Positions 971 through 51,475 of a DNA stretch of 64,000 bases are shown piece by piece. Within the stretch, counting starts at the first letter, position 1. Every line of letters begins with the position of its first letter. Source of the stretch: a virus (lineage: Duplodnaviria; Caudoviricetes); IMG/VR virus record IMGVR_UViG_3300034170_000057, one strand, 5' to 3'. The notes under the pieces were generated by a model, which had not been told where the DNA came from, ran no database searches, and was given only the letters and a program-made list of their open reading frames with translations. Position numbers and translations under genes: made by a program.

Positions 971-1235
971 ATACGTGCCATTCAATCCGAACATCATGCC
1001 GAACGGTGATAAGCGTCTGATCACTTTCGAGGATGAAATCTGCATCGCATACGCGCTCTTTGATGCAGGCTTCGAACCTTGCTGGTCGCACGACTACTCC
1101 GACAACCTAATCTGCGGCTACGGTGATTCTCCGCACGGCTTCAAATACGAATTGGTTGTCACCGATTGTGAGGATATTTCCAAGGGCATTTTGCCTTGGA
1201 GTGAAGTCAAAGGGAAGTTGGAGATTTACCGATGA
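957..1235 (+). CDS. hypothetical protein
   Basis: GGAGG at 946-950 before ATG 957. Confidence 0.7.
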   Translation: MQMDKYVPFNPNIMPNGDKRLITFEDEICIAYALFDAGFEPCWSHDYSDNLICGYGDSPHGFKYELVVTDCEDISKGILPWSEVKGKLEIYR

Positions 1236-41906: not shown

Positions 41907-42101
41907 GTGATGAGCGACAAAAACTGTAAATATGTAGCGAGGCTGGAAAACGGCCAATACATTTTCAAGATCAACAAAGACAAGGTTTTAACATGCAAAA
42001 GCAGATTACGCGCCCGGCAATTCAGTCTAACGGAAAGCCAACGACTAGCGCGAATCCTCAAGGTGCAGCTGATCGAAGCCGATTGGCAGCTGGAACAATA
42101 A
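41907..42101 (+). CDS. hypothetical protein
   Basis: GGGG SD. Confidence 0.55.
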   Translation: MMSDKNCKYVARLENGQYIFKINKDKVLTCKSRLRARQFSLTESQRLARILKVQLIEADWQLEQ

Positions 42102-45130: not shown

Positions 45131-45516
45131 ACTGGCAGCACGGCACAACGCGTAGTGTCTTGCTGGTGGGTCGCTACGCAATTAAATTCCCCACTGTGGT
45201 CTGCTGGCGCAATTTCCTACGGGGCATTTTATGCAACGGTTCCGAGTACACGTCCAGCAAAATGAACTGTGAATTTCTGGCACCGGTTGTGTGGCGTTCA
45301 TGGTTAGACCTAGTGATCGTCATGCCCCGCGCAGATGTAAAGAGTCCAGAGGAAGACGACGAAATTCGTTTCGAATATCTCGAAGACTTTTGGCAGCGCG
45401 TGGACGCCAGCGAACAAGCAATCAAAGACATGATCTACGGAATCGTAGAAAACAAAATCTGTTCTGTCGGCAAAATAAACGGTGTGACCGTTGCCGTAGA
45501 CTATGGGAGTATATGA
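45121..45516 (+). CDS. minimal protein-kinase-like fold protein
   Basis: GTTRSV...YAIKFP (Lys), NGSE (alphaC Glu), VMPRA hinge, VAVDYG. Confidence 0.45.
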   Translation: MQVNWQHGTTRSVLLVGRYAIKFPTVVCWRNFLRGILCNGSEYTSSKMNCEFLAPVVWRSWLDLVIVMPRADVKSPEEDDEIRFEYLEDFWQRVDASEQAIKDMIYGIVENKICSVGKINGVTVAVDYGSI

Positions 45517-46330
45517 ATTGGCCCGTCCTCTGAAAATCAAACGTCGTCCGGAACTCACTGCGTGCCTGAAGAAAAACGGCTTCCGCAAAAACGTCGAAGG
45601 TTCCGATAGCGACAACTGGGTTTACGAACACAAAGCAGACGAAAACCGCGTGGTCGTTATTTGCGCGTTCGAAATCGCGACGGATATCGTGAAGTACAAA
45701 GATTTCCCGATGGTGGAACCTGAGACGCCGATTGCAGATGTGATTGCGTATATCGACTCCGAAATGGAATTGGTGAACAAATCTTTCAACGGCTTCAAAG
45801 CGCTGTTAGAAACTGTGCGCCAGCATGCGAAGGGCCTCGGTGTGAAAGGTCGTTTCGTGCCTAACGAAGTCGATACTCATTCGTGGGAATTCTTCGCTGA
45901 TTGCTACAAAGCACAGCCGCTGTTCTTCCTGTCTGATCCGGGGCCGAATGCGAAAGTTGAACTCGGTTACAACTACAACGAATACCCGGTTGAAACCGCT
46001 TACGAAGTGTTGAGCATTTTGCAAGGCAAGGGCTTCGAATACTGGCCGTGCGGCGACGAACGTGTGATGTTCAAAGGTAAGTCGATTTTCACTTTCAAAA
46101 CCTACGAAGATTTCATGCCGTTCATGTTTACGCACGGTCTGGTCCGCATCATTGAGCGTATGGGCATGGCACAATTATCGTCCGTCTCTGATCCGACCTT
46201 GAACGAATTGCTTGAAGGTCAAACCGATGTGAAACACTACGTGGAAATCCAGCTGCGTCGTGCAATTAACACCGATGAATTCTTCAGCTACATCAAATCC
46301 AAAGTTGCTGAAAAGGAAACCGCAGAATGA
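45503..46330 (+). CDS. hypothetical protein, paralogous C-terminal domain family
   Basis: FMPFMFTHGL...SDPTLNELLEG shared with 46327 and 52883. Confidence 0.7.
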   Translation: MGVYELARPLKIKRRPELTACLKKNGFRKNVEGSDSDNWVYEHKADENRVVVICAFEIATDIVKYKDFPMVEPETPIADVIAYIDSEMELVNKSFNGFKALLETVRQHAKGLGVKGRFVPNEVDTHSWEFFADCYKAQPLFFLSDPGPNAKVELGYNYNEYPVETAYEVLSILQGKGFEYWPCGDERVMFKGKSIFTFKTYEDFMPFMFTHGLVRIIERMGMAQLSSVSDPTLNELLEGQTDVKHYVEIQLRRAINTDEFFSYIKSKVAEKETAE

Positions 46331-47370
46331 GCTGTGTAAACATCGTTACCAAAGGGCTAGAACGTCAGCTAGAAAAGCGCGCTGGCCTGATCAAGCAACT
46401 GCTGGAAATCGGTTTCATTAACAAACCAAGTCCTGACCGTTTCCGCTGGAACCACGTCGAACTTATTCTGCTGGATTTCGATGGCCGTTGCCGCCTAACG
46501 GCAGGCTTGGATGACTCGGTTAATTTCTCTGCCCGGATCAAAGACGAAACGATCCTGAAAAAGATCATGGTCTACGTCGATAAAACCAAAGCCGATCAGA
46601 AAATGTTCGACGACCTTTGCATGGACGTGCAGCACAAGCTGGAAGAAATCGGTATCTACGTCGTGCAACAGGTCAAGACGCCCAAACGTCCGTCGCGCAT
46701 GCGCCACAAGATTGCCGTTCGTGATCCGTGGGCGTCCAACTTTGCAATGAAAATCAACGGCGACCGTTTGTTCCGTCTGAGCTTCGACGATCACGGTGAG
46801 TTTCCGGACGAAGGGCGTATCGAACTCGATTACCGCAACGATTACGTCGAGGTAAAAACAGCTGACGACGTGATCAAAGTTTTGCAGGAAACATTGCCAG
46901 ATGTTCGCGTTGTTGCCACGCTGAACAAGAATGCGATTTGCTCTTTCAGTTCGTACCGTATGTTCCTGCCGTACATTTTCAAATACGGCATTACCAGCAT
47001 CAAAAGCGTGTCGTGCGATGTTGTGCAAACCACGGCTGATCCGGTGGCGAGCCGTCTGGTTGAAGCCGAGAAAGTCACCCGTGAATATTTCCGGATCAAC
47101 CTGCGCAACAAAATGACGCTGGAAGATCAGGCGGCGTTGGGATCGGTTGGGCGTGCAAAAACACAGCCTGAAATTGTTGGGTACACAACGGTAAAAGAAC
47201 TGGCGATATTCCTGTCGATCAAACCGGCTGCTATCGTCAAACACATGTTCAAACTTGGCACACCCGTGACGCTCAATCATGTACTTGAGAAAGAAACAGC
47301 GCAGGAAATTGCAGGAAGTTTCGGTCGCGGCACGCTGCCCGAGGAAATCAACACAGGGGCCGCACAGTGA
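46327..47370 (+). CDS. paralog-family protein with C-terminal IF2 N-domain (IF2_N)
   Basis: [47 protein letters not shown] matches the recalled IF2_N repeat. Confidence 0.75.
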
Positions 47371-48056
47371 GCAATAAAAAACCGTACAGCAGCCGTACCG
47401 CCGATAAATTCGTCCTGCGCCTTCTCGACGATATGCGCCAGCAAATCAAAGCAATTTCCGAAGCCTCGCACCGCAGCATGAATAGCGAAATGATCGCGTG
47501 GTTAGAAACCATGCTGGAAATTCACGCGGAAACCGGCGTCATTCCTACGCTTGCGGATATGCGTAGCGGCGCCGAAATGGAAGCACAAAACCGACTGATG
47601 CGTGCGATATTCCAGCGTCTGTTGGAAGCTGGCAGCTGGCACATGAGCGCCGTGGAATTCGATTCGCATGATCACCATGTGGACGGCGTGCAATTCGAAA
47701 AAGAAATCAAAGAAGTTCTGGCGCAGGCGGTGCCTAAAATCCGTAATGTTGTGCAGCAAGTGGAACCGCATACGCTTGAAGTTTCTGAACCTTACAGCGT
47801 TCCGTTCGATAAACTGGAAGCGTTGGTTAAGTCGTTGCCGAAACCCTACGGCCCGGATCTTTTGCCACCAGTGCCGCAATTTATTCCGCAAGAAGGCATG
47901 CCGGTTTTTGTCAGCAGTATCGGGCGTAACGGCGTTGTTCGTCATATCTGGATCGGTGGCGACAACAAGTGTCAAATAACTATGGCCCGTGTGGAAATGT
48001 TCGGCTGTGGTTGCGTAGAAGTTCCGGCCCATGATTTGTGTGCGCCGAAGCCATGA
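47367..48056 (+). CDS. AmrZ-like Arc/ribbon-helix-helix regulator with C-terminal extension
   Basis: [18 protein letters not shown]....[13 protein letters not shown]. Confidence 0.85.
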
Positions 48057-48445
48057 CCAAGCACAAAGGGATTGATATTCCGCCGCACCAACAGGCAGTG
48101 ATCGACGATATGCTTCGAAAGGTATCCACGTCACGGAATGAAAAACATTTTCTGATCGTTCCCAATTACGTGATCAGCAAATACGACGGACAAGAGCATT
48201 TCATTAGCGAGCATAAGCTAATGAATCTGTACGGCGTTGAGCGGCGCGAATGCGTGGTAAGCAATGACCCGTGCGGGCGACGTGAAGAAGAGGGCCTGCT
48301 GTGGCTTGAGCCGTCCTATGAGGGCGATTACAGCCTGCCGGACGTGTGGGATGATCCATGCGGCCCGTACCAGCCTGACGACTCGCTGGTGCAGCTGTGG
48401 TTCATCCGTGCAATCCAACCAATTACAGGAATCTTTCCATGCTAG
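48053..48445 (+). CDS. hypothetical protein
   Basis: ATGA overlap. Confidence 0.65.
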
Positions 48446-49350
48446 TCAAAGGTGAAATTGTTTGGGCCTTCAACGGAACCTATCGGGATACTTTGTGGGG
48501 CGTTGAACTGCCACCGTTCGACGGTTCTGAACTCGGCATCACCATGGATGCGATTGCAGGCGATGGCAAAGTTGTTCCTTTCCGGTACGCAGCCGGTGTG
48601 GATTATTTCATCGAAGACCACGGCATAAATCAGCCCTGCATGTCGTTCATTTTCAAACTGGGTGGCCCGGTTGAATTGCAGGATGCGCAACTGAAATTGA
48701 TCGGGGCTTTCACGAAAGCGTTGACCTACGACTGGGATAAATTCCACGTCGCTTATCGTGCGCTCGCCAATGAAGAATCACGCGCCGTTCGTACCCTCGT
48801 TTATCGTGTGTATGAAAACAACGGCGAATGCACGGAACATCCGGAAATGCTGTGCGGCCTGCCCTGCGGCCATTACCATTGCCCGGTGTGTTCGGAAATG
48901 GTTGTTGCGGGCCTGCCCCATCCGCCAAAAGAAGCCTATGCGAAAATGCTGGAAGAGGAACGCGCTGAATATTACGTGCAGACTGAAAAGAGCCTTAACT
49001 CATACGCAGAACTCGAACAAAACTGGGGCGGCGACGGTGAAGAAAAACCGATTGAAGCCAGTTTTAAAAATGCGGGCGAGTTCTTTGCCGCGATCAAAGA
49101 AAATCGTTTGCCTGCACCCGATGCGACACTCGATCATGAGGGCGTTGTTGCTTTGCTGTGGCCGGACAATCACGATCCGGATGACACGTATGTTTCGATG
49201 GCGTTTTATGCAGATGAAACCGTCGGGTATTGGAAACGTAACGCGGTTATCGAAGAGAGTGGAAGCGTCACTATCCCACGTGACGAAATTCACGAAGAAC
49301 GTCTGCTGCATTTCTTGCATACCCGTCTGCCGCAGCTGTCCGGGAAATAA
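48439..49350 (+). CDS. hypothetical protein with CGHYHCPVC metal-binding motif
   Basis: AGGA SD, ATG 48439. Confidence 0.7.
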   Translation: MLVKGEIVWAFNGTYRDTLWGVELPPFDGSELGITMDAIAGDGKVVPFRYAAGVDYFIEDHGINQPCMSFIFKLGGPVELQDAQLKLIGAFTKALTYDWDKFHVAYRALANEESRAVRTLVYRVYENNGECTEHPEMLCGLPCGHYHCPVCSEMVVAGLPHPPKEAYAKMLEEERAEYYVQTEKSLNSYAELEQNWGGDGEEKPIEASFKNAGEFFAAIKENRLPAPDATLDHEGVVALLWPDNHDPDDTYVSMAFYADETVGYWKRNAVIEESGSVTIPRDEIHEERLLHFLHTRLPQLSGK

Positions 49351-49358
49351 TGTAAATA
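49351..49358 (+). promoter_or_regulatory. TGTAAATA putative late-type promoter
   Basis: intergenic, right after a stop, followed by a GCGCC/GGCGC hairpin and an operon. Confidence 0.55.
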
Positions 49359-50107: not shown

Positions 50108-51475
50108 ATGCATTGCACGTATCACAATATCGGTTTCGACCTGAACAAAATGATGGTCGAAGAATTGCCGTGGACCCAAGCCTTCTACCGCGAAATGCCG
50201 AAACCTGAATCGACGGCTGACGCGGAATTCTACCAAGACGTGAAAGATTATTTCGCGTTCCCTCTCGAACACAGTGCCAACATGCCGGTCTACAATTTGC
50301 ACCTGAGTTCCTGTGCAAAAATCGAAACCGTTTTCGAATCCGCATACGCAATGCTGGTCGAAGCTGTGGGCAAGCTGTTCAACGAATCCAACGATACGCT
50401 GATGCACTATATGGGCTGCGATTTCCTGCGCAAGCACCCGTATTTCATCGACTACGCCAAGTTCACCTATCGCGACCATGGTTCGGCCCGCCAAGCAATC
50501 TACGGGCGCTTTGACGCTGCATTCGATCCTGTGACTGAGGAAGTTACGGGTATTTACGAATTCAACGGCGACACGCCTACCATGCTTTTCGAATCCGTAG
50601 CGTTGCAGAATCGCGTCTGTGAATCCGTGACGGGCGATGTTGAATTGCAGCTGAATAGTTTCTATCCGCTGCTGCAACAAATGTTCGAAGACATGGGCGA
50701 GATTCCGGGCACCGCTGCTGTGATCCATGACAGCAAATCCTTCGAGGATACCGCGACCTGCGAAGTGCTGGCGCAAATCATCGGTGAGCATAACGTCTGC
50801 CTGTTTACTGACGTTTCCGAAATCGACTACGACTTCAACAACAAAACCAATCCGTTCGCGGTTGGCGACGATAATCTCTCGGTTATTTTCGCATTGGTTC
50901 CGTGGGAAGAAATGGTCGAGGGTTTCCCGCAGGCGTACAAGGAATGGGCCAACTGGGCTAACCACGTCACAATGCTGGAACCGGCGTGGCGTTGGTTCAC
51001 CAGTAACAAAGGCATTTGGGCCTACATCACGCACCTAATGTTTACCAACGATGAATTCCACGCGAAATACGGCATGCTTCCCGTGCTGGAAACCTACGTG
51101 GATAACCCGTTAGTTTTCACGGGCAAAACCGGCTACGTTTCGAAACCGAAAGTCGGTCGCATGAGTACCAACATCGAAATCCACAAGGCCGATGGCACCG
51201 TGGAATTCGCGACCGATGGCCCGTACAAAGACGACAAGGTTTATCAGGTCTACACAGCGCCGCACAAAGTCGATGGCCGGAACAATTTCATTATCGGAAT
51301 GTTCATGGTTCCGGATATTGCATCCGATTACAATTCGCTGAAACAAGCGACGGCAGCTACGCTGTGCATTCGCGAATTCGACTCGCCTGTATTGGGCGTG
51401 AAGAACGAGCGATTTATTCCACACGTTCTGATCGACGATTTGCCGGAACCGGACGAAGAAAACTTCGAGGGCTAA
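50108..51475 (+). CDS. glutathionylspermidine synthase-like ATP-grasp ligase (YgiC/YjfC family)
   Basis: YGRFD, YEFNGDTPT, LEPAW...SNK, KPKVGRMSTNI. Confidence 0.85.
   Translation: MHCTYHNIGFDLNKMMVEELPWTQAFYREMPKPESTADAEFYQDVKDYFAFPLEHSANMPVYNLHLSSCAKIETVFESAYAMLVEAVGKLFNESNDTLMHYMGCDFLRKHPYFIDYAKFTYRDHGSARQAIYGRFDAAFDPVTEEVTGIYEFNGDTPTMLFESVALQNRVCESVTGDVELQLNSFYPLLQQMFEDMGEIPGTAAVIHDSKSFEDTATCEVLAQIIGEHNVCLFTDVSEIDYDFNNKTNPFAVGDDNLSVIFALVPWEEMVEGFPQAYKEWANWANHVTMLEPAWRWFTSNKGIWAYITHLMFTNDEFHAKYGMLPVLETYVDNPLVFTGKTGYVSKPKVGRMSTNIEIHKADGTVEFATDGPYKDDKVYQVYTAPHKVDGRNNFIIGMFMVPDIASDYNSLKQATAATLCIREFDSPVLGVKNERFIPHVLIDDLPEPDEENFEG

What the first reader, a model, noticed from the sequence alone, without database searches (positions are those of the whole stretch)
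47367..48056. Phage AmrZ mimic with a novel C-terminal region, coupled to the IF2_N gene
Seen: [41 protein letters not shown]. Against the recalled P. aeruginosa AmrZ ([41 protein letters not shown]) I count 27/41 identities, including the DNA-reading K-x-V-x-R strand. The remaining ~180 aa are unrelated and end in a KOW/SH3-like unit with GCGC. The GTG start overlaps the IF2_N gene stop. Known: AmrZ controls alginate/EPS, flagella (fleQ), pili and c-di-GMP genes. Inference: the phage can occupy AmrZ sites or form mixed dimers to rewire receptors and biofilm. With the neighbouring gene this would be a two-gene host-mimicry unit acting on transcription and translation.
Basis: partly seen in the sequence, partly recalled or inferred. 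Interest (0 to 1): 0.82.

Follow-up and report, generated by a model that had tools for sequence, protein, structure and literature searches.

The report
Jumbo-phage regulator with AmrZ-type DNA-binding head
A gene of an uncultured giant phage encodes a DNA-binding protein whose DNA-reading part closely copies the Pseudomonas regulator AmrZ but whose remainder is phage-specific. This kind of phage protein has already been described and, in one smaller phage, shown to bind host AmrZ-target promoters, so the find is real but only moderately new.

Summary
ORF 47367-48056 (+, 229 aa) starts at a GTG that overlaps the stop of the upstream IF2_N-bearing gene. Of 12 AmrZ residues reported to contact or position DNA, 11 are identical.

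The rest is not AmrZ. It consists of:
- a ~50-aa domain also found alone in about 90 clusters of small proteins, phage-like where context was seen, with no Pfam family or solved relative;
- a variable linker;
- a confidently predicted Tudor/KOW/SH3-like barrel. "GCGC" is not conserved.

The protein is conserved in at least 22 relatives on contigs up to 316 kb, including cultured Pseudomonas phage HRDY3.

An AmrZ-type head on a phage of probable Pseudomonadaceae host makes binding to AmrZ-type operators plausible. It has direct precedent in Gp53 of ΦPA1019 and the "algZ" gene noted in PaBG.

Three points weaken it. The host is unknown, nothing supports mixed dimers, and the IF2_N tail occurs only in the closest relatives. 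The "two-gene mimicry unit" is therefore not a conserved unit.

Verdict: new variant of a known kind, moderate interest. The scan also noted this same stretch in an overlapping window.

The parts
47367..48056 (+). Whole gene, 229 aa plus stop. It is a three-module phage RHH protein.
   Evidence: ORF list. There are 22 full-length homologues at E from 1e-136 to 1.7e-14. They are aligned in A1.
47355..47370 (+). Translation start region. It holds an AGGGG SD-like run (47355-47359) and a GTG start overlapping the upstream TGA (GTGA, 47367-47370).
   Evidence: Sequence. The same 4-nt start/stop overlap with the upstream gene is seen in HRDY3, L003 and L004.
47382..47516 (+). AmrZ-type ribbon-helix-helix DNA-binding domain (residues 6-50). 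The DNA-reading strand K14-V16-R18 lies at 47406-47420.
   Evidence: Pfam Arc E=1.3e-12. AmrZ 3QOQ E=1.2e-10. Foldseek to 3qoq_A gives TM by target 0.73, rmsd 2.2 and 57% identity. Contact residues are mapped from PMC3325190.
47577..47729 (+). Middle domain (residues ~71-121) with motif LLxxGxW[FY/H]xSAxE[LF]D...DGxxxExEI. It also occurs alone in many small proteins.
   Evidence: A profile search of 1.84 billion representatives gave about 90 small proteins matching only this part. They are aligned in A7. No Pfam family, no PDB sequence match. It is single-copy in the window at E=7e-25.
47730..47873 (+). Variable linker (residues ~122-169) with low predicted order. It is shortened or missing in distant relatives.
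   Evidence: The A1 alignment shows gaps in P0016-P0022. pLDDT is 31-51.
47874..48053 (+). C-terminal Tudor/KOW/SH3-like beta-barrel (residues 170-229).
   Evidence: AF2 pLDDT is 85-91 in the full model and 87.9 mean for the domain alone. VIA gives Z 7.9 to a Tudor domain and 7.4/7.2 to KOW domains. Foldseek lists UvrD CTD, Mfd and CarD/CdnL among its matches, none at E<=0.001.
46327..47370 (+). Upstream, translationally overlapping gene (347 aa). It is a paralogue of 45503-46330. A lineage-specific IF2_N tail lies at residues 287-334 (47185-47328).
   Evidence: Pfam IF2_N E=9.4e-11. Paralogy E=7e-11. The tail is present in L004 and L093 and absent in L003, L005 and HRDY3.
41925..41932 (+). 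Upstream copy of the enriched motif (AC)TGTAAATA, a candidate promoter for the gene block that contains the RHH gene.
   Evidence: 8 copies against 1.4 expected, 7 of them on the + strand. Contexts are shown.
49351..49358 (+). Next copy of TGTAAATA, directly after the block. It is the candidate start of the following transcription unit.

Best explanation
The gene encodes a transcription factor of a roughly 310-kb Lu11/HRDY3-like jumbo phage.

Shown:
- Its N-terminal 50 residues are an AmrZ-type ribbon-helix-helix domain.
- It keeps the residues with which AmrZ reads GGC half-sites: K14, V16 and R18, equivalent to AmrZ K18, V20 and R22.
- It also keeps the N-terminal arm (Y7, S9, R10) and the backbone clamps (R24, S37-S40).
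- AmrZ's C-terminal tetramerisation helix is replaced by a ~50-aa domain shared with many small proteins (phage-like where context was seen), a linker, and a predicted Tudor/KOW/SH3-like barrel.
- The architecture is conserved across deeply diverged relatives.

Inferred:
- The protein dimerises through the RHH fold and sits on AmrZ-type operators (GGC-N5-GCC and variants).
- Its most likely targets are host promoters normally controlled by AmrZ in a Pseudomonadaceae host, such as motility, exopolysaccharide and c-di-GMP genes, and possibly others such as cell division genes. There it would act mainly as a competing repressor during infection, as demonstrated for Gp53 of ΦPA1019.
- The two C-terminal modules would supply self-association or contacts with host or phage proteins in place of AmrZ's own tetramerisation.
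- Some regulation of phage promoters by the same head is not excluded.
For: - Domain identity: Pfam Arc E=1.3e-12. AmrZ is the best solved relative at E=1.2e-10, 28/45 identical. Foldseek of the model onto 3qoq_A gives rmsd 2.2 A and 57% identity.
- DNA-contact residues: the AmrZ-DNA structure paper PMC3325190 names Y11, S13, R14, K18, V20, R22, E25, R28, S41, M42, N43 and S44. In the window 11 are identical and E25 becomes D21.
- Conservation of those residues: they are invariant or nearly so in 17 aligned family members that are only 34-92% identical overall. If the head served only co-evolving phage operators, drift in these residues would be tolerated. None is seen, except in P0022.
- Distribution: the AmrZ-type RHH profile hits 91/101 genomes of the family of a Pseudomonas genome but 6/201 of an even sample of its class. 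The best 80 of at least 589 genome hits are nearly all Pseudomonadaceae.
- Phage relatives: the nearest cultured ones are Pseudomonas phages HRDY3 (syntenic, with the orthologue annotated Arc-like) and Lu11.
- Precedent: Gp53 of ΦPA1019 is an early, 126-aa AmrZ-like RHH that binds the fleQ, pslA, amrZ and ftsZ promoters. It needs R15 and N36, equivalent to window R18 and N39 (PMC13650114). PA_L9 gp32 matches Gp53's published length, R15 and N36 positions and genome size, so I take it as the likely orthologue. It is only 41% identical to the window RHH, which makes it less AmrZ-like than the window protein.
- Independent cases: PaBG and Noxifer carry an AmrZ-type RHH followed by a short C-terminal extension that reads as beta-rich by eye; it was not folded here.
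- Phage operators: GGC-N5-GCC is not enriched in the 64-kb window (16 found, 18.9 expected). There is no recurrent palindrome set. A large phage operator set is therefore not visible here.
Against: - The host is unknown.
- Window G+C is about 50%, lower than most Pseudomonas genomes, although AmrZ-bearing Pseudomonadaceae loci at 0.46-0.48 G+C exist.
- RHH identity to different AmrZ orthologues (25-29 of 44) does not single out any host.
- A few phage operators would escape a 6-base motif count, and only about a fifth of the genome was examined.
- Expression timing is unknown. The gene sits in a long co-directional block behind a TGTAAATA motif of unknown class.
- AmrZ needs its C-terminal tetramerisation domain for activation and repression (title of Xu et al. 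2016, cited in PMC13650114). That tail is missing here, so operator occupancy may differ from AmrZ's.
- Nothing was measured. All target assignments are inference from homology.
Confidence: 0.45

Rival explanations
1. It is the phage's own gene-expression regulator. The RHH head would bind a small number of operators in the phage genome, for autoregulation or an early-to-middle/late switch as with P22 Arc and Mnt. The likeness to AmrZ would then reflect common descent or an old capture without any present host-directed role.
For: - Most characterised phage RHH proteins regulate phage promoters (P22 Arc/Mnt, established knowledge).
- PHROG hits are to Arc-like transcriptional regulator families.
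- The gene is embedded in a long phage operon and conserved in synteny over large distances. That fits a core regulatory role.
- One amrZ1-like site, GGCATTTTGCC, lies in a 140-nt intergenic gap at 1185-1195.
Against: - There is no enrichment of GGC-N5-GCC (16 against 18.9 expected).
- No repeated palindromic operator family is found in 64 kb, and no repeat is notable upstream of the block.
- All AmrZ-specific contact residues, including the N-terminal arm, are strictly retained across relatives that are about 35% identical overall. Pure phage-internal co-evolution does not require this.
- Gp53 shows that such proteins do act on host promoters (PMC13650114).
Confidence: 0.3
2. It is an RHH protein with a non-transcriptional role. 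It could be a centromere-binding partition adaptor (ParG/omega-like) for a replicating jumbo genome. It could also be the antitoxin of a toxin-antitoxin or defence pair with a neighbouring gene.
For: - PHROG families annotated 'partition protein ATPase' match the RHH part (phrog_2685 E=5e-10, phrog_795 E=1e-8).
- One JGI copy of the 92% relative is named 'plasmid stability protein'.
- There is a weak FitA-like RHH hit at E=0.029, below threshold.
- The gene is translationally coupled to its neighbours.
Against: - None of the five neighbouring ORFs scanned (three upstream/downstream on each side of the block) gave a ParA or toxin hit in Pfam, PHROGs or NCBIfam.
- No iterated centromere-like repeats are found.
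- Those PHROG names cover only the RHH segment.
- The specific likeness is to AmrZ, not to ParG or FitA.
Confidence: 0.07
3. It is a targeting adaptor. The AmrZ-type head serves only as an address. The conserved middle domain and the Tudor-like barrel would do the real work by recruiting, blocking or modifying a host machine such as RNA polymerase at those sites.
For: - The middle domain is an independent module present alone in about 90 clusters of small proteins. That suggests a portable protein-binding function.
- The barrel's structural neighbours include the RNAP-binding Tudor-like domains of UvrD, Mfd and CarD/CdnL.
- The C-terminal extension of the related P0023/PaBG type gives weak sub-threshold Pfam hits to CarD_TRCF_RID (E=0.0066) and PcrA_UvrD_tudor (E=0.027).
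Against: - All fold matches are below the level that separates homology from a common small fold: Z under 8, and no Foldseek E at or below 0.001.
- The window's own barrel has no KOW, CarD or Tudor Pfam hit even at E up to 10.
- No partner is known.
Confidence: 0.12

Closest known systems
AmrZ (AlgZ) of Pseudomonas aeruginosa, PDB 3QOQ (Pryor et al. 2012, PMC3325190)
   Same: It has an Arc-family RHH with an extended N-terminal arm. Identity is 28/45 over the domain. K18/V20/R22 and 8 of the 9 other DNA-contacting or positioning residues are identical. The same GGC half-site reading is therefore predicted.
   Different: AmrZ is a 108-aa chromosomal regulator with a C-terminal tetramerisation helix (ELSxxERELLQRFRQLSxRQQNAL). 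That helix is absent here. The window protein is 229 aa and phage-encoded, with two unrelated C-terminal modules. W45 replaces the AmrZ arginine in helix 2 in all family members.
Gp53 of P. aeruginosa phage ΦPA1019 (Commun Biol 2026, PMC13650114); likely orthologue PA_L9 gp32, 126 aa
   Same: It is a phage-encoded AmrZ-like RHH, followed after a short spacer by a C-terminal segment that aligns colinearly with the window's barrel. Gp53 was shown to bind host fleQ, pslA, amrZ and ftsZ promoters. Its key residues R15 and N36 correspond to window R18 and N39.
   Different: The RHH is only 41% identical. Homology of the C-terminal parts is not established (BLASTP E=0.031, hhalign E=0.077). Gp53 has no middle domain. 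It comes from a 94-kb siphophage, not a jumbo phage.
'AlgZ / alginate and motility regulator' of jumbo phage PaBG (gp302, 138 aa; PMC7412058) and Noxifer gp106 (146 aa)
   Same: These are jumbo Pseudomonas phages carrying an AmrZ-type RHH plus a short C-terminal extension that reads as beta-rich by eye. The PaBG authors already speculated about host manipulation.
   Different: They are shorter and lack the middle domain. There is no synteny with the window. Their RHH is closer to host AmrZ: Noxifer is 36/44 identical to a fluorescens-group AmrZ by my count, against 28/44 for the window. Profile similarity of the C-terminal parts is only suggestive (hhalign probability 42%).
Pseudomonas phage HRDY3 XDJ14992, 'Arc-like DNA binding domain protein' (205 aa)
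   Same: It is the true orthologue. It has the same three-module architecture and the same position: after two ~280-aa paralogues with a 4-nt start/stop overlap, and upstream of a glutathionylspermidine-synthase-like gene.
   Different: It is 33% identical overall. Its upstream gene has no IF2_N tail. It is unstudied, and no paper on it was found.
P22 Arc and Mnt repressors
   Same: They share the Pfam family and fold. Mnt is the second PDB hit (E=0.74).
   Different: They have different DNA-reading residues (Q/N/R and H/N/R strands, from general knowledge). They lack the AmrZ-type N-terminal arm. They are small phage-operator repressors.

Membership tests
Arc/MetJ ribbon-helix-helix superfamily (Pfam PF03869 Arc) | Match to the family HMM above the curated threshold | tested here: met
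   47.8 bits against a cut-off of 20.4, E=1.3e-12, residues 9-48.
Arc/MetJ ribbon-helix-helix superfamily (Pfam PF03869 Arc) | A strand-helix-helix fold, with the N-terminus of helix 2 (RSMNSE) clamping the DNA backbone | tested here: met
   The model has helices 23-34 and 38-56. It superposes on AmrZ 3qoq_A with TM by target 0.73 and rmsd 2.2 A. The strand is low-confidence in the monomer model, as expected for an obligate dimer.
Arc/MetJ ribbon-helix-helix superfamily (Pfam PF03869 Arc) | Obligate dimer that binds DNA through a two-stranded sheet | not testable with these tools
   This needs SEC/native MS and EMSA.
AmrZ orthologues (Pseudomonadaceae) | The DNA-reading and positioning residues Y11, S13, R14, K18, V20, R22, E25, R28 and S41-S44 | tested here: met
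   11 of 12 are identical and E25 becomes D.
AmrZ orthologues (Pseudomonadaceae) | A C-terminal tetramerisation domain (ELSxxERELLQRFRQLSxRQQNAL) in a protein of about 108 aa | tested here: not met
   Bacterial AmrZ loci carry it. The window protein aligns to AmrZ only over residues 6-50 and is 229 aa long.
AmrZ orthologues (Pseudomonadaceae) | A chromosomal gene of the host | tested here: not met
   The gene lies in a phage block syntenic with HRDY3 and with contigs of up to 316 kb.
AmrZ orthologues (Pseudomonadaceae) | Binding to the amrZ, algD, fleQ and psl operators | not testable with these tools
   This needs EMSA or DAP-seq.
Phage AmrZ-like RHH regulators (Gp53 of ΦPA1019, PaBG 'AlgZ', Noxifer gp106) | Phage-encoded, with an AmrZ-like RHH at the N-terminus | tested here: met
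Phage AmrZ-like RHH regulators (Gp53 of ΦPA1019, PaBG 'AlgZ', Noxifer gp106) | A homologous C-terminal part | tested here: inconclusive
   hhalign gives probability 42% (E=2.6e-4) to the PaBG type. To the Gp53 type it gives E=0.077, and BLASTP gives E=0.031. The barrel fold is predicted for the window protein only.
Phage AmrZ-like RHH regulators (Gp53 of ΦPA1019, PaBG 'AlgZ', Noxifer gp106) | Early expression and repression of host promoters | not testable with these tools
This needs infection RNA-seq and binding assays.
KOW (PF00467) and bacterial RNAP-interacting Tudor-like domains (PF02559 CarD_TRCF_RID, PF21196 PcrA_UvrD_tudor) | Sequence match to the family HMM | tested here: not met
   None of these families is reported for residues 51-229 or 162-229, even at E up to 10.
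KOW (PF00467) and bacterial RNAP-interacting Tudor-like domains (PF02559 CarD_TRCF_RID, PF21196 PcrA_UvrD_tudor) | A five-stranded SH3-like barrel fold | tested here: met
   Domain model pLDDT is 87.9. Z is 7.9 (Tudor, rmsd 2.0, 55 aligned), 7.4 (KOW6-7) and 7.2 (NusG KOW). UvrD CTD 7egs_B gives TM by target 0.68. This is fold level only and does not prove homology.
KOW (PF00467) and bacterial RNAP-interacting Tudor-like domains (PF02559 CarD_TRCF_RID, PF21196 PcrA_UvrD_tudor) | Binding to the RNA polymerase beta subunit or to a ribosomal or NusG partner | not testable with these tools
   This needs pull-down or two-hybrid assays with host RNAP.
RHH antitoxins / ParG-omega partition adaptors | An adjacent cognate toxin or ParA ATPase gene, or iterated centromere repeats | tested here: not met
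   The neighbours scanned gave no such Pfam, PHROG or NCBIfam hits. No iterated repeats are found.

The most novel reading that the evidence does not exclude
The family would be an 'operator-hijacking adaptor'. A host-copied AmrZ head addresses the protein to the AmrZ regulon. An undescribed ~50-aa domain (LLxxGxW[FY]xSAxELD...DGE) and a Tudor-like barrel then capture a host machine there, for example RNA polymerase. The same small domain, carried alone by about 90 clusters of small proteins (phage-like where context was seen), would define a new widespread host-targeting module.
Probability: 0.12. Interest if true: 0.7.

Novelty: new variant of a known kind. Interest (0 to 1): 0.4.

Why it matters
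AmrZ controls the switch between motility and biofilm in Pseudomonas, including surface structures that phages use as receptors. One phage AmrZ look-alike (Gp53) has been shown to shut down host division and motility genes.

This window shows that a whole clade of roughly 300-kb jumbo phages keeps an even more AmrZ-like DNA-reading head. They have kept it over long evolutionary distances, joined to two modules that are not in AmrZ. That makes a concrete question testable in a cultured relative (HRDY3): does a phage copy of a host regulator compete at host operators, and what do the added modules contribute?

The middle module is also a lead to an undescribed small domain common in small proteins. 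The concept itself is already published, so the gain is incremental.

Tried and rejected
- Nearest phage by DNA: megablast of 3.5 kb against 50,697 phage records found no match. The phage is known only from metagenomes.
- Word-index search with the 65-aa N-terminus: only 5 candidates were returned. This is too few to judge distribution, so it was replaced by the genome scans.
- Host inference from RHH identity or from the IF2_N tail: all AmrZ orthologues score 25-29 of 44. IF2 of three different Pseudomonadaceae genomes all score 51-52%. Neither discriminates between hosts.
- AmrZ-type operator search: GGC-N5-GCC occurs 16 times against 18.9 expected. The A/T-spacer version occurs 3 times against 2.3 expected. 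A scan for recurrent palindromes (half-sites of 5-7 nt, spacers of 0-8 nt) found none, and shuffled sequences also gave none. Local repeats upstream of the block are unremarkable.
- Complex prediction of the C-terminal barrel with residues 1-530 of P. aeruginosa RpoB: the tool returned no verdict. This counts neither for nor against binding.
- Barrel fold searches: Foldseek against PDB, AFDB clusters and BFVD gave no match at E<=0.001, only the generic Tudor/KOW/SH3/CAP-Gly class.
- Atlas feature search of residues 55-229: no usable hit.
- Profile of the middle domain against PDB sequences: nothing meaningful, best E=0.24. tblastn of the 60-aa middle domain against phage records found no match.
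- 'GCGC' as a motif: rejected because it is not conserved.
- Synteny with PaBG around its algZ-like gene: none.
- Pfam scan of ten large window ORFs for context: no families.
Full report
**What is there.**
The window carries ORF 47367..48056 on the + strand (229 aa). Its GTG start overlaps the TGA of the preceding ORF 46327..47370 as GTGA. An AGGGG run lies 7 nt upstream. Homologues begin at the equivalent position, so the start is sound.

Pfam places residues 9-48 in the Arc family (E=1.3e-12, 47.8 bits against a cut-off of 20.4). PHROGs gives Arc-like regulator families. Among all solved structures the best match is AmrZ, PDB 3QOQ (E=1.2e-10, residues 6-50). The next is Mnt at E=0.74. The upstream ORF does contain IF2_N (residues 287-334, E=9.4e-11).

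**How AmrZ-like is the head?**
The AmrZ-DNA structure paper (PMC3325190) assigns these roles:
- base reading of two 5'-GGC half-sites to K18, V20 and R22;
- arm contacts to Y11, S13 and R14;
- positioning to E25;
- backbone contacts to R28, S41, M42, N43 and S44.

With the 4-residue offset these map to window Y7, S9, R10, K14, V16, R18, D21, R24 and S37-S40. Eleven are identical and one is conservative. In an alignment of 17 family members (34-92% identical to the window protein) these positions are invariant or nearly so.

The AmrZ-type signature is also taxonomically sharp. A scan of one genome per species found at least 589 loci, and the best 80 are almost all Pseudomonas, Azotobacter, Stutzerimonas or Thiopseudomonas. 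They encode canonical ~105-110-aa AmrZ proteins with the ELSxxERELLQRFRQLSxRQQNAL tail. The RHH profile hits 91 of 101 sampled genomes of that family but only 6 of 201 in an even sample of the class. The profile includes AmrZ orthologues, so this measures where AmrZ-type heads occur. That is the point of the test.

**What the rest is.**
BLASTP against a full-length AmrZ orthologue aligns only residues 6-50. The tetramerisation tail is absent.

A profile of residues 55-229 searched against 1.84 billion representatives found 11 full-length-type proteins at E<=1e-10. It also found about 90 small proteins (46-160 aa) that match only profile positions ~12-70, corresponding to window residues ~66-125. 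Aligned, these show a clear ~50-aa domain with the motif LLxxGxW[FY]xSAxELD, five or so residues, then DGExLxxEI (A7).

This middle domain has the following properties:
- It has no Pfam family and no solved relative by sequence.
- One member belongs to phrog_1273, of unknown function.
- Two contexts look phage-like, one beside a DNA polymerase III beta clamp and an RNase T-type exonuclease.
- It is single-copy in the window and in HRDY3, and absent from PaBG and Noxifer.

After a variable, poorly ordered linker, residues 170-229 fold with confidence into a small barrel. pLDDT is 85-91 in the full model and 87.9 mean for the domain alone. The structural neighbours are:
- Tudor domains (Z 7.9, rmsd 2.0, 55 aligned);
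- KOW domains of DSIF and NusG (Z 7.4, 7.2);
- chromo and CAP-Gly domains;
- among bacterial proteins, the UvrD C-terminal domain, the Mfd RID and CarD/CdnL.

No Foldseek match reaches E<=0.001, and Z under 8 is within what common small folds give. This establishes the fold class only. "GCGC" is not a conserved motif.

**Where it comes from.**
No phage record matches at the DNA level, and no genome is held for the window.

The protein has 22 full-length homologues on contigs up to 316 kb. One of them is annotated in UniRef as an Arc-like DNA-binding domain protein of an uncultured myovirus. The only cultured carrier is Pseudomonas phage HRDY3 (313,683 bp). There the orthologue (205 aa, 33% identical) sits in the same gene order: two ~280-aa paralogues, the RHH gene with a 4-nt overlap, a ~315-aa Cys-rich protein, and a glutathionylspermidine-synthase-like gene.

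That synthase is 68% identical to HRDY3's and 63% to Lu11's. The window is therefore an uncultured member of the Lu11/HRDY3-like jumbo phages. Its host is probably a member of the Pseudomonadaceae, but this is not shown. Window G+C is about 50%. AmrZ-bearing Pseudomonadaceae with loci at 0.46-0.48 G+C exist. Neither RHH identity nor the IF2_N tail discriminates among candidate hosts.

**The IF2_N coupling.**
The overlap with the upstream gene is conserved. The IF2_N tail is not.

| Locus | Arc protein identity to window | IF2_N tail on upstream gene | Upstream gene length |
|---|---|---|---|
| L004 | 92% | present | 347 aa |
| L093 | 83% | present | partial (last 110 aa seen) |
| L003 | 76% | absent | 278 aa |
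| L005 | 65% | absent | 258 aa |
| HRDY3 | 33% | absent | 282 aa |

 The RHH gene therefore long predates the IF2_N acquisition. A "two-gene mimicry unit" is at most a recent, sub-clade feature. The two upstream genes are paralogues (E=7e-11).

**What is already known.**
- PaBG's 138-aa protein is annotated "alginate and motility regulator". The 2020 paper already suggested it might influence the host (PMC7412058).
- Noxifer gp106 (146 aa) has an N-terminus almost identical to fluorescens-group AmrZ.
- A 2026 study of Gp53 from the 94-kb phage ΦPA1019 showed the most. This early, 126-aa AmrZ-like RHH binds the fleQ, pslA, amrZ and ftsZ promoters. It blocks division, motility and biofilm, and depends on R15 and N36 (PMC13650114).
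- PA_L9 gp32 matches Gp53's length, its R15 and N36 positions and its genome size, so I take it as the likely orthologue. Its RHH is only 41% identical to the window's, so the window protein is more AmrZ-like than the protein with proven activity.
- The C-terminal extensions of these shorter phage proteins read as beta-rich by eye. Homology to the window's barrel is suggestive at best.

**Mechanism.**
Shown: an AmrZ-type RHH head with an intact reading surface, loss of the AmrZ tetramerisation tail, two added modules, and conservation across a jumbo-phage clade.

Inferred: dimeric binding to GGC-type half-sites. The most likely targets are host AmrZ-controlled promoters, where the protein would compete with or replace AmrZ.

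Arguments for host targets:
- the strict retention of AmrZ-specific contacts over large divergence;
- the restriction of such heads to the probable host family;
- the Gp53 precedent;
- the lack of any visible operator set in 64 kb of phage DNA. GGC-N5-GCC occurs 16 times against 18.9 expected, and there is no recurrent palindrome.

Arguments against certainty:
- the host is unknown;
- the motif carries little information;
- only about a fifth of the genome was seen;
- timing is unknown;
- the missing tetramerisation domain may change site choice.

I give the host-operator reading 0.45, a phage-internal regulator 0.30, an adaptor role driven by the C-terminal modules 0.12, and partition or antitoxin roles 0.07.

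**Novelty and score.**
The protein is not an AmrZ orthologue, because two defining features were tested and not met. It is a member of the known kind "phage-encoded AmrZ-like RHH regulator", with a new three-module architecture and an undescribed middle domain. A specialist would not be surprised by the head. The modular tail and the small-domain family are the new leads. Interest is 0.4.

My tests agree on the likeness, but they show that the two features have different ages.

Noticed in passing
window 4507, 20125, 34862, 41925, 49351, 53697, 55593 (+) and 28952 (-): The motif (AC)TGTAAATA occurs 8 times against 1.4 expected, 7 of them on the coding strand. The copies lie mostly at gene boundaries and are often followed by a hairpin. 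It is a likely phage promoter class, analogous to T4 late TATAAATA. Copies at 41925 and 49351 bracket the block that holds the RHH gene.
   Followed up: partly
window 47577-47729; proteins P0044-P0133: An undescribed ~50-aa domain (LLxxGxW[FY]xSAxELD...DGExLxxEI) is found alone in about 90 clusters of small proteins. Contexts seen were phage-like. It has no Pfam family and no solved relative. One member is phrog_1273.
   Followed up: partly
window 45503-46330 and 46327-47370: These are tandem paralogues (27% identity over 112 aa, E=7e-11). Only the second has gained an IF2_N tail, and only in the sub-clade whose RHH protein is at least 83% identical to the window's.
   Followed up: partly
window 1185-1195: GGCATTTTGCC is the only palindromic A/T-spacer GGC-N5-GCC site in the window. 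It resembles the amrZ1 operator form and lies in a 140-nt gap before ORF 1232-2317. It is a possible phage operator for the RHH protein.
   Followed up: no
window 48397-49350: The downstream 317-aa protein carries a Cys/His cluster (CGLPCGHYHCPVC) that is kept in the HRDY3 counterpart. It matches phrog_34602 and phrog_29033, both of unknown function, and looks like a zinc-binding protein.
   Followed up: no
window 50108-51475: This glutathionylspermidine-synthase-like ATP-grasp gene is 68% identical to that of HRDY3 and 63% to that of Lu11. It also occurs in ~95-kb Pseudomonas phages. It is a useful marker for placing the phage.
   Followed up: partly
genomes G001-G305 (genome search): The AmrZ-type RHH profile hits 91 of 101 sampled genomes of the Pseudomonas family, often with extra weaker paralogues. 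In an even sample of the class it hits only 6 of 201 genomes.
   Followed up: yes
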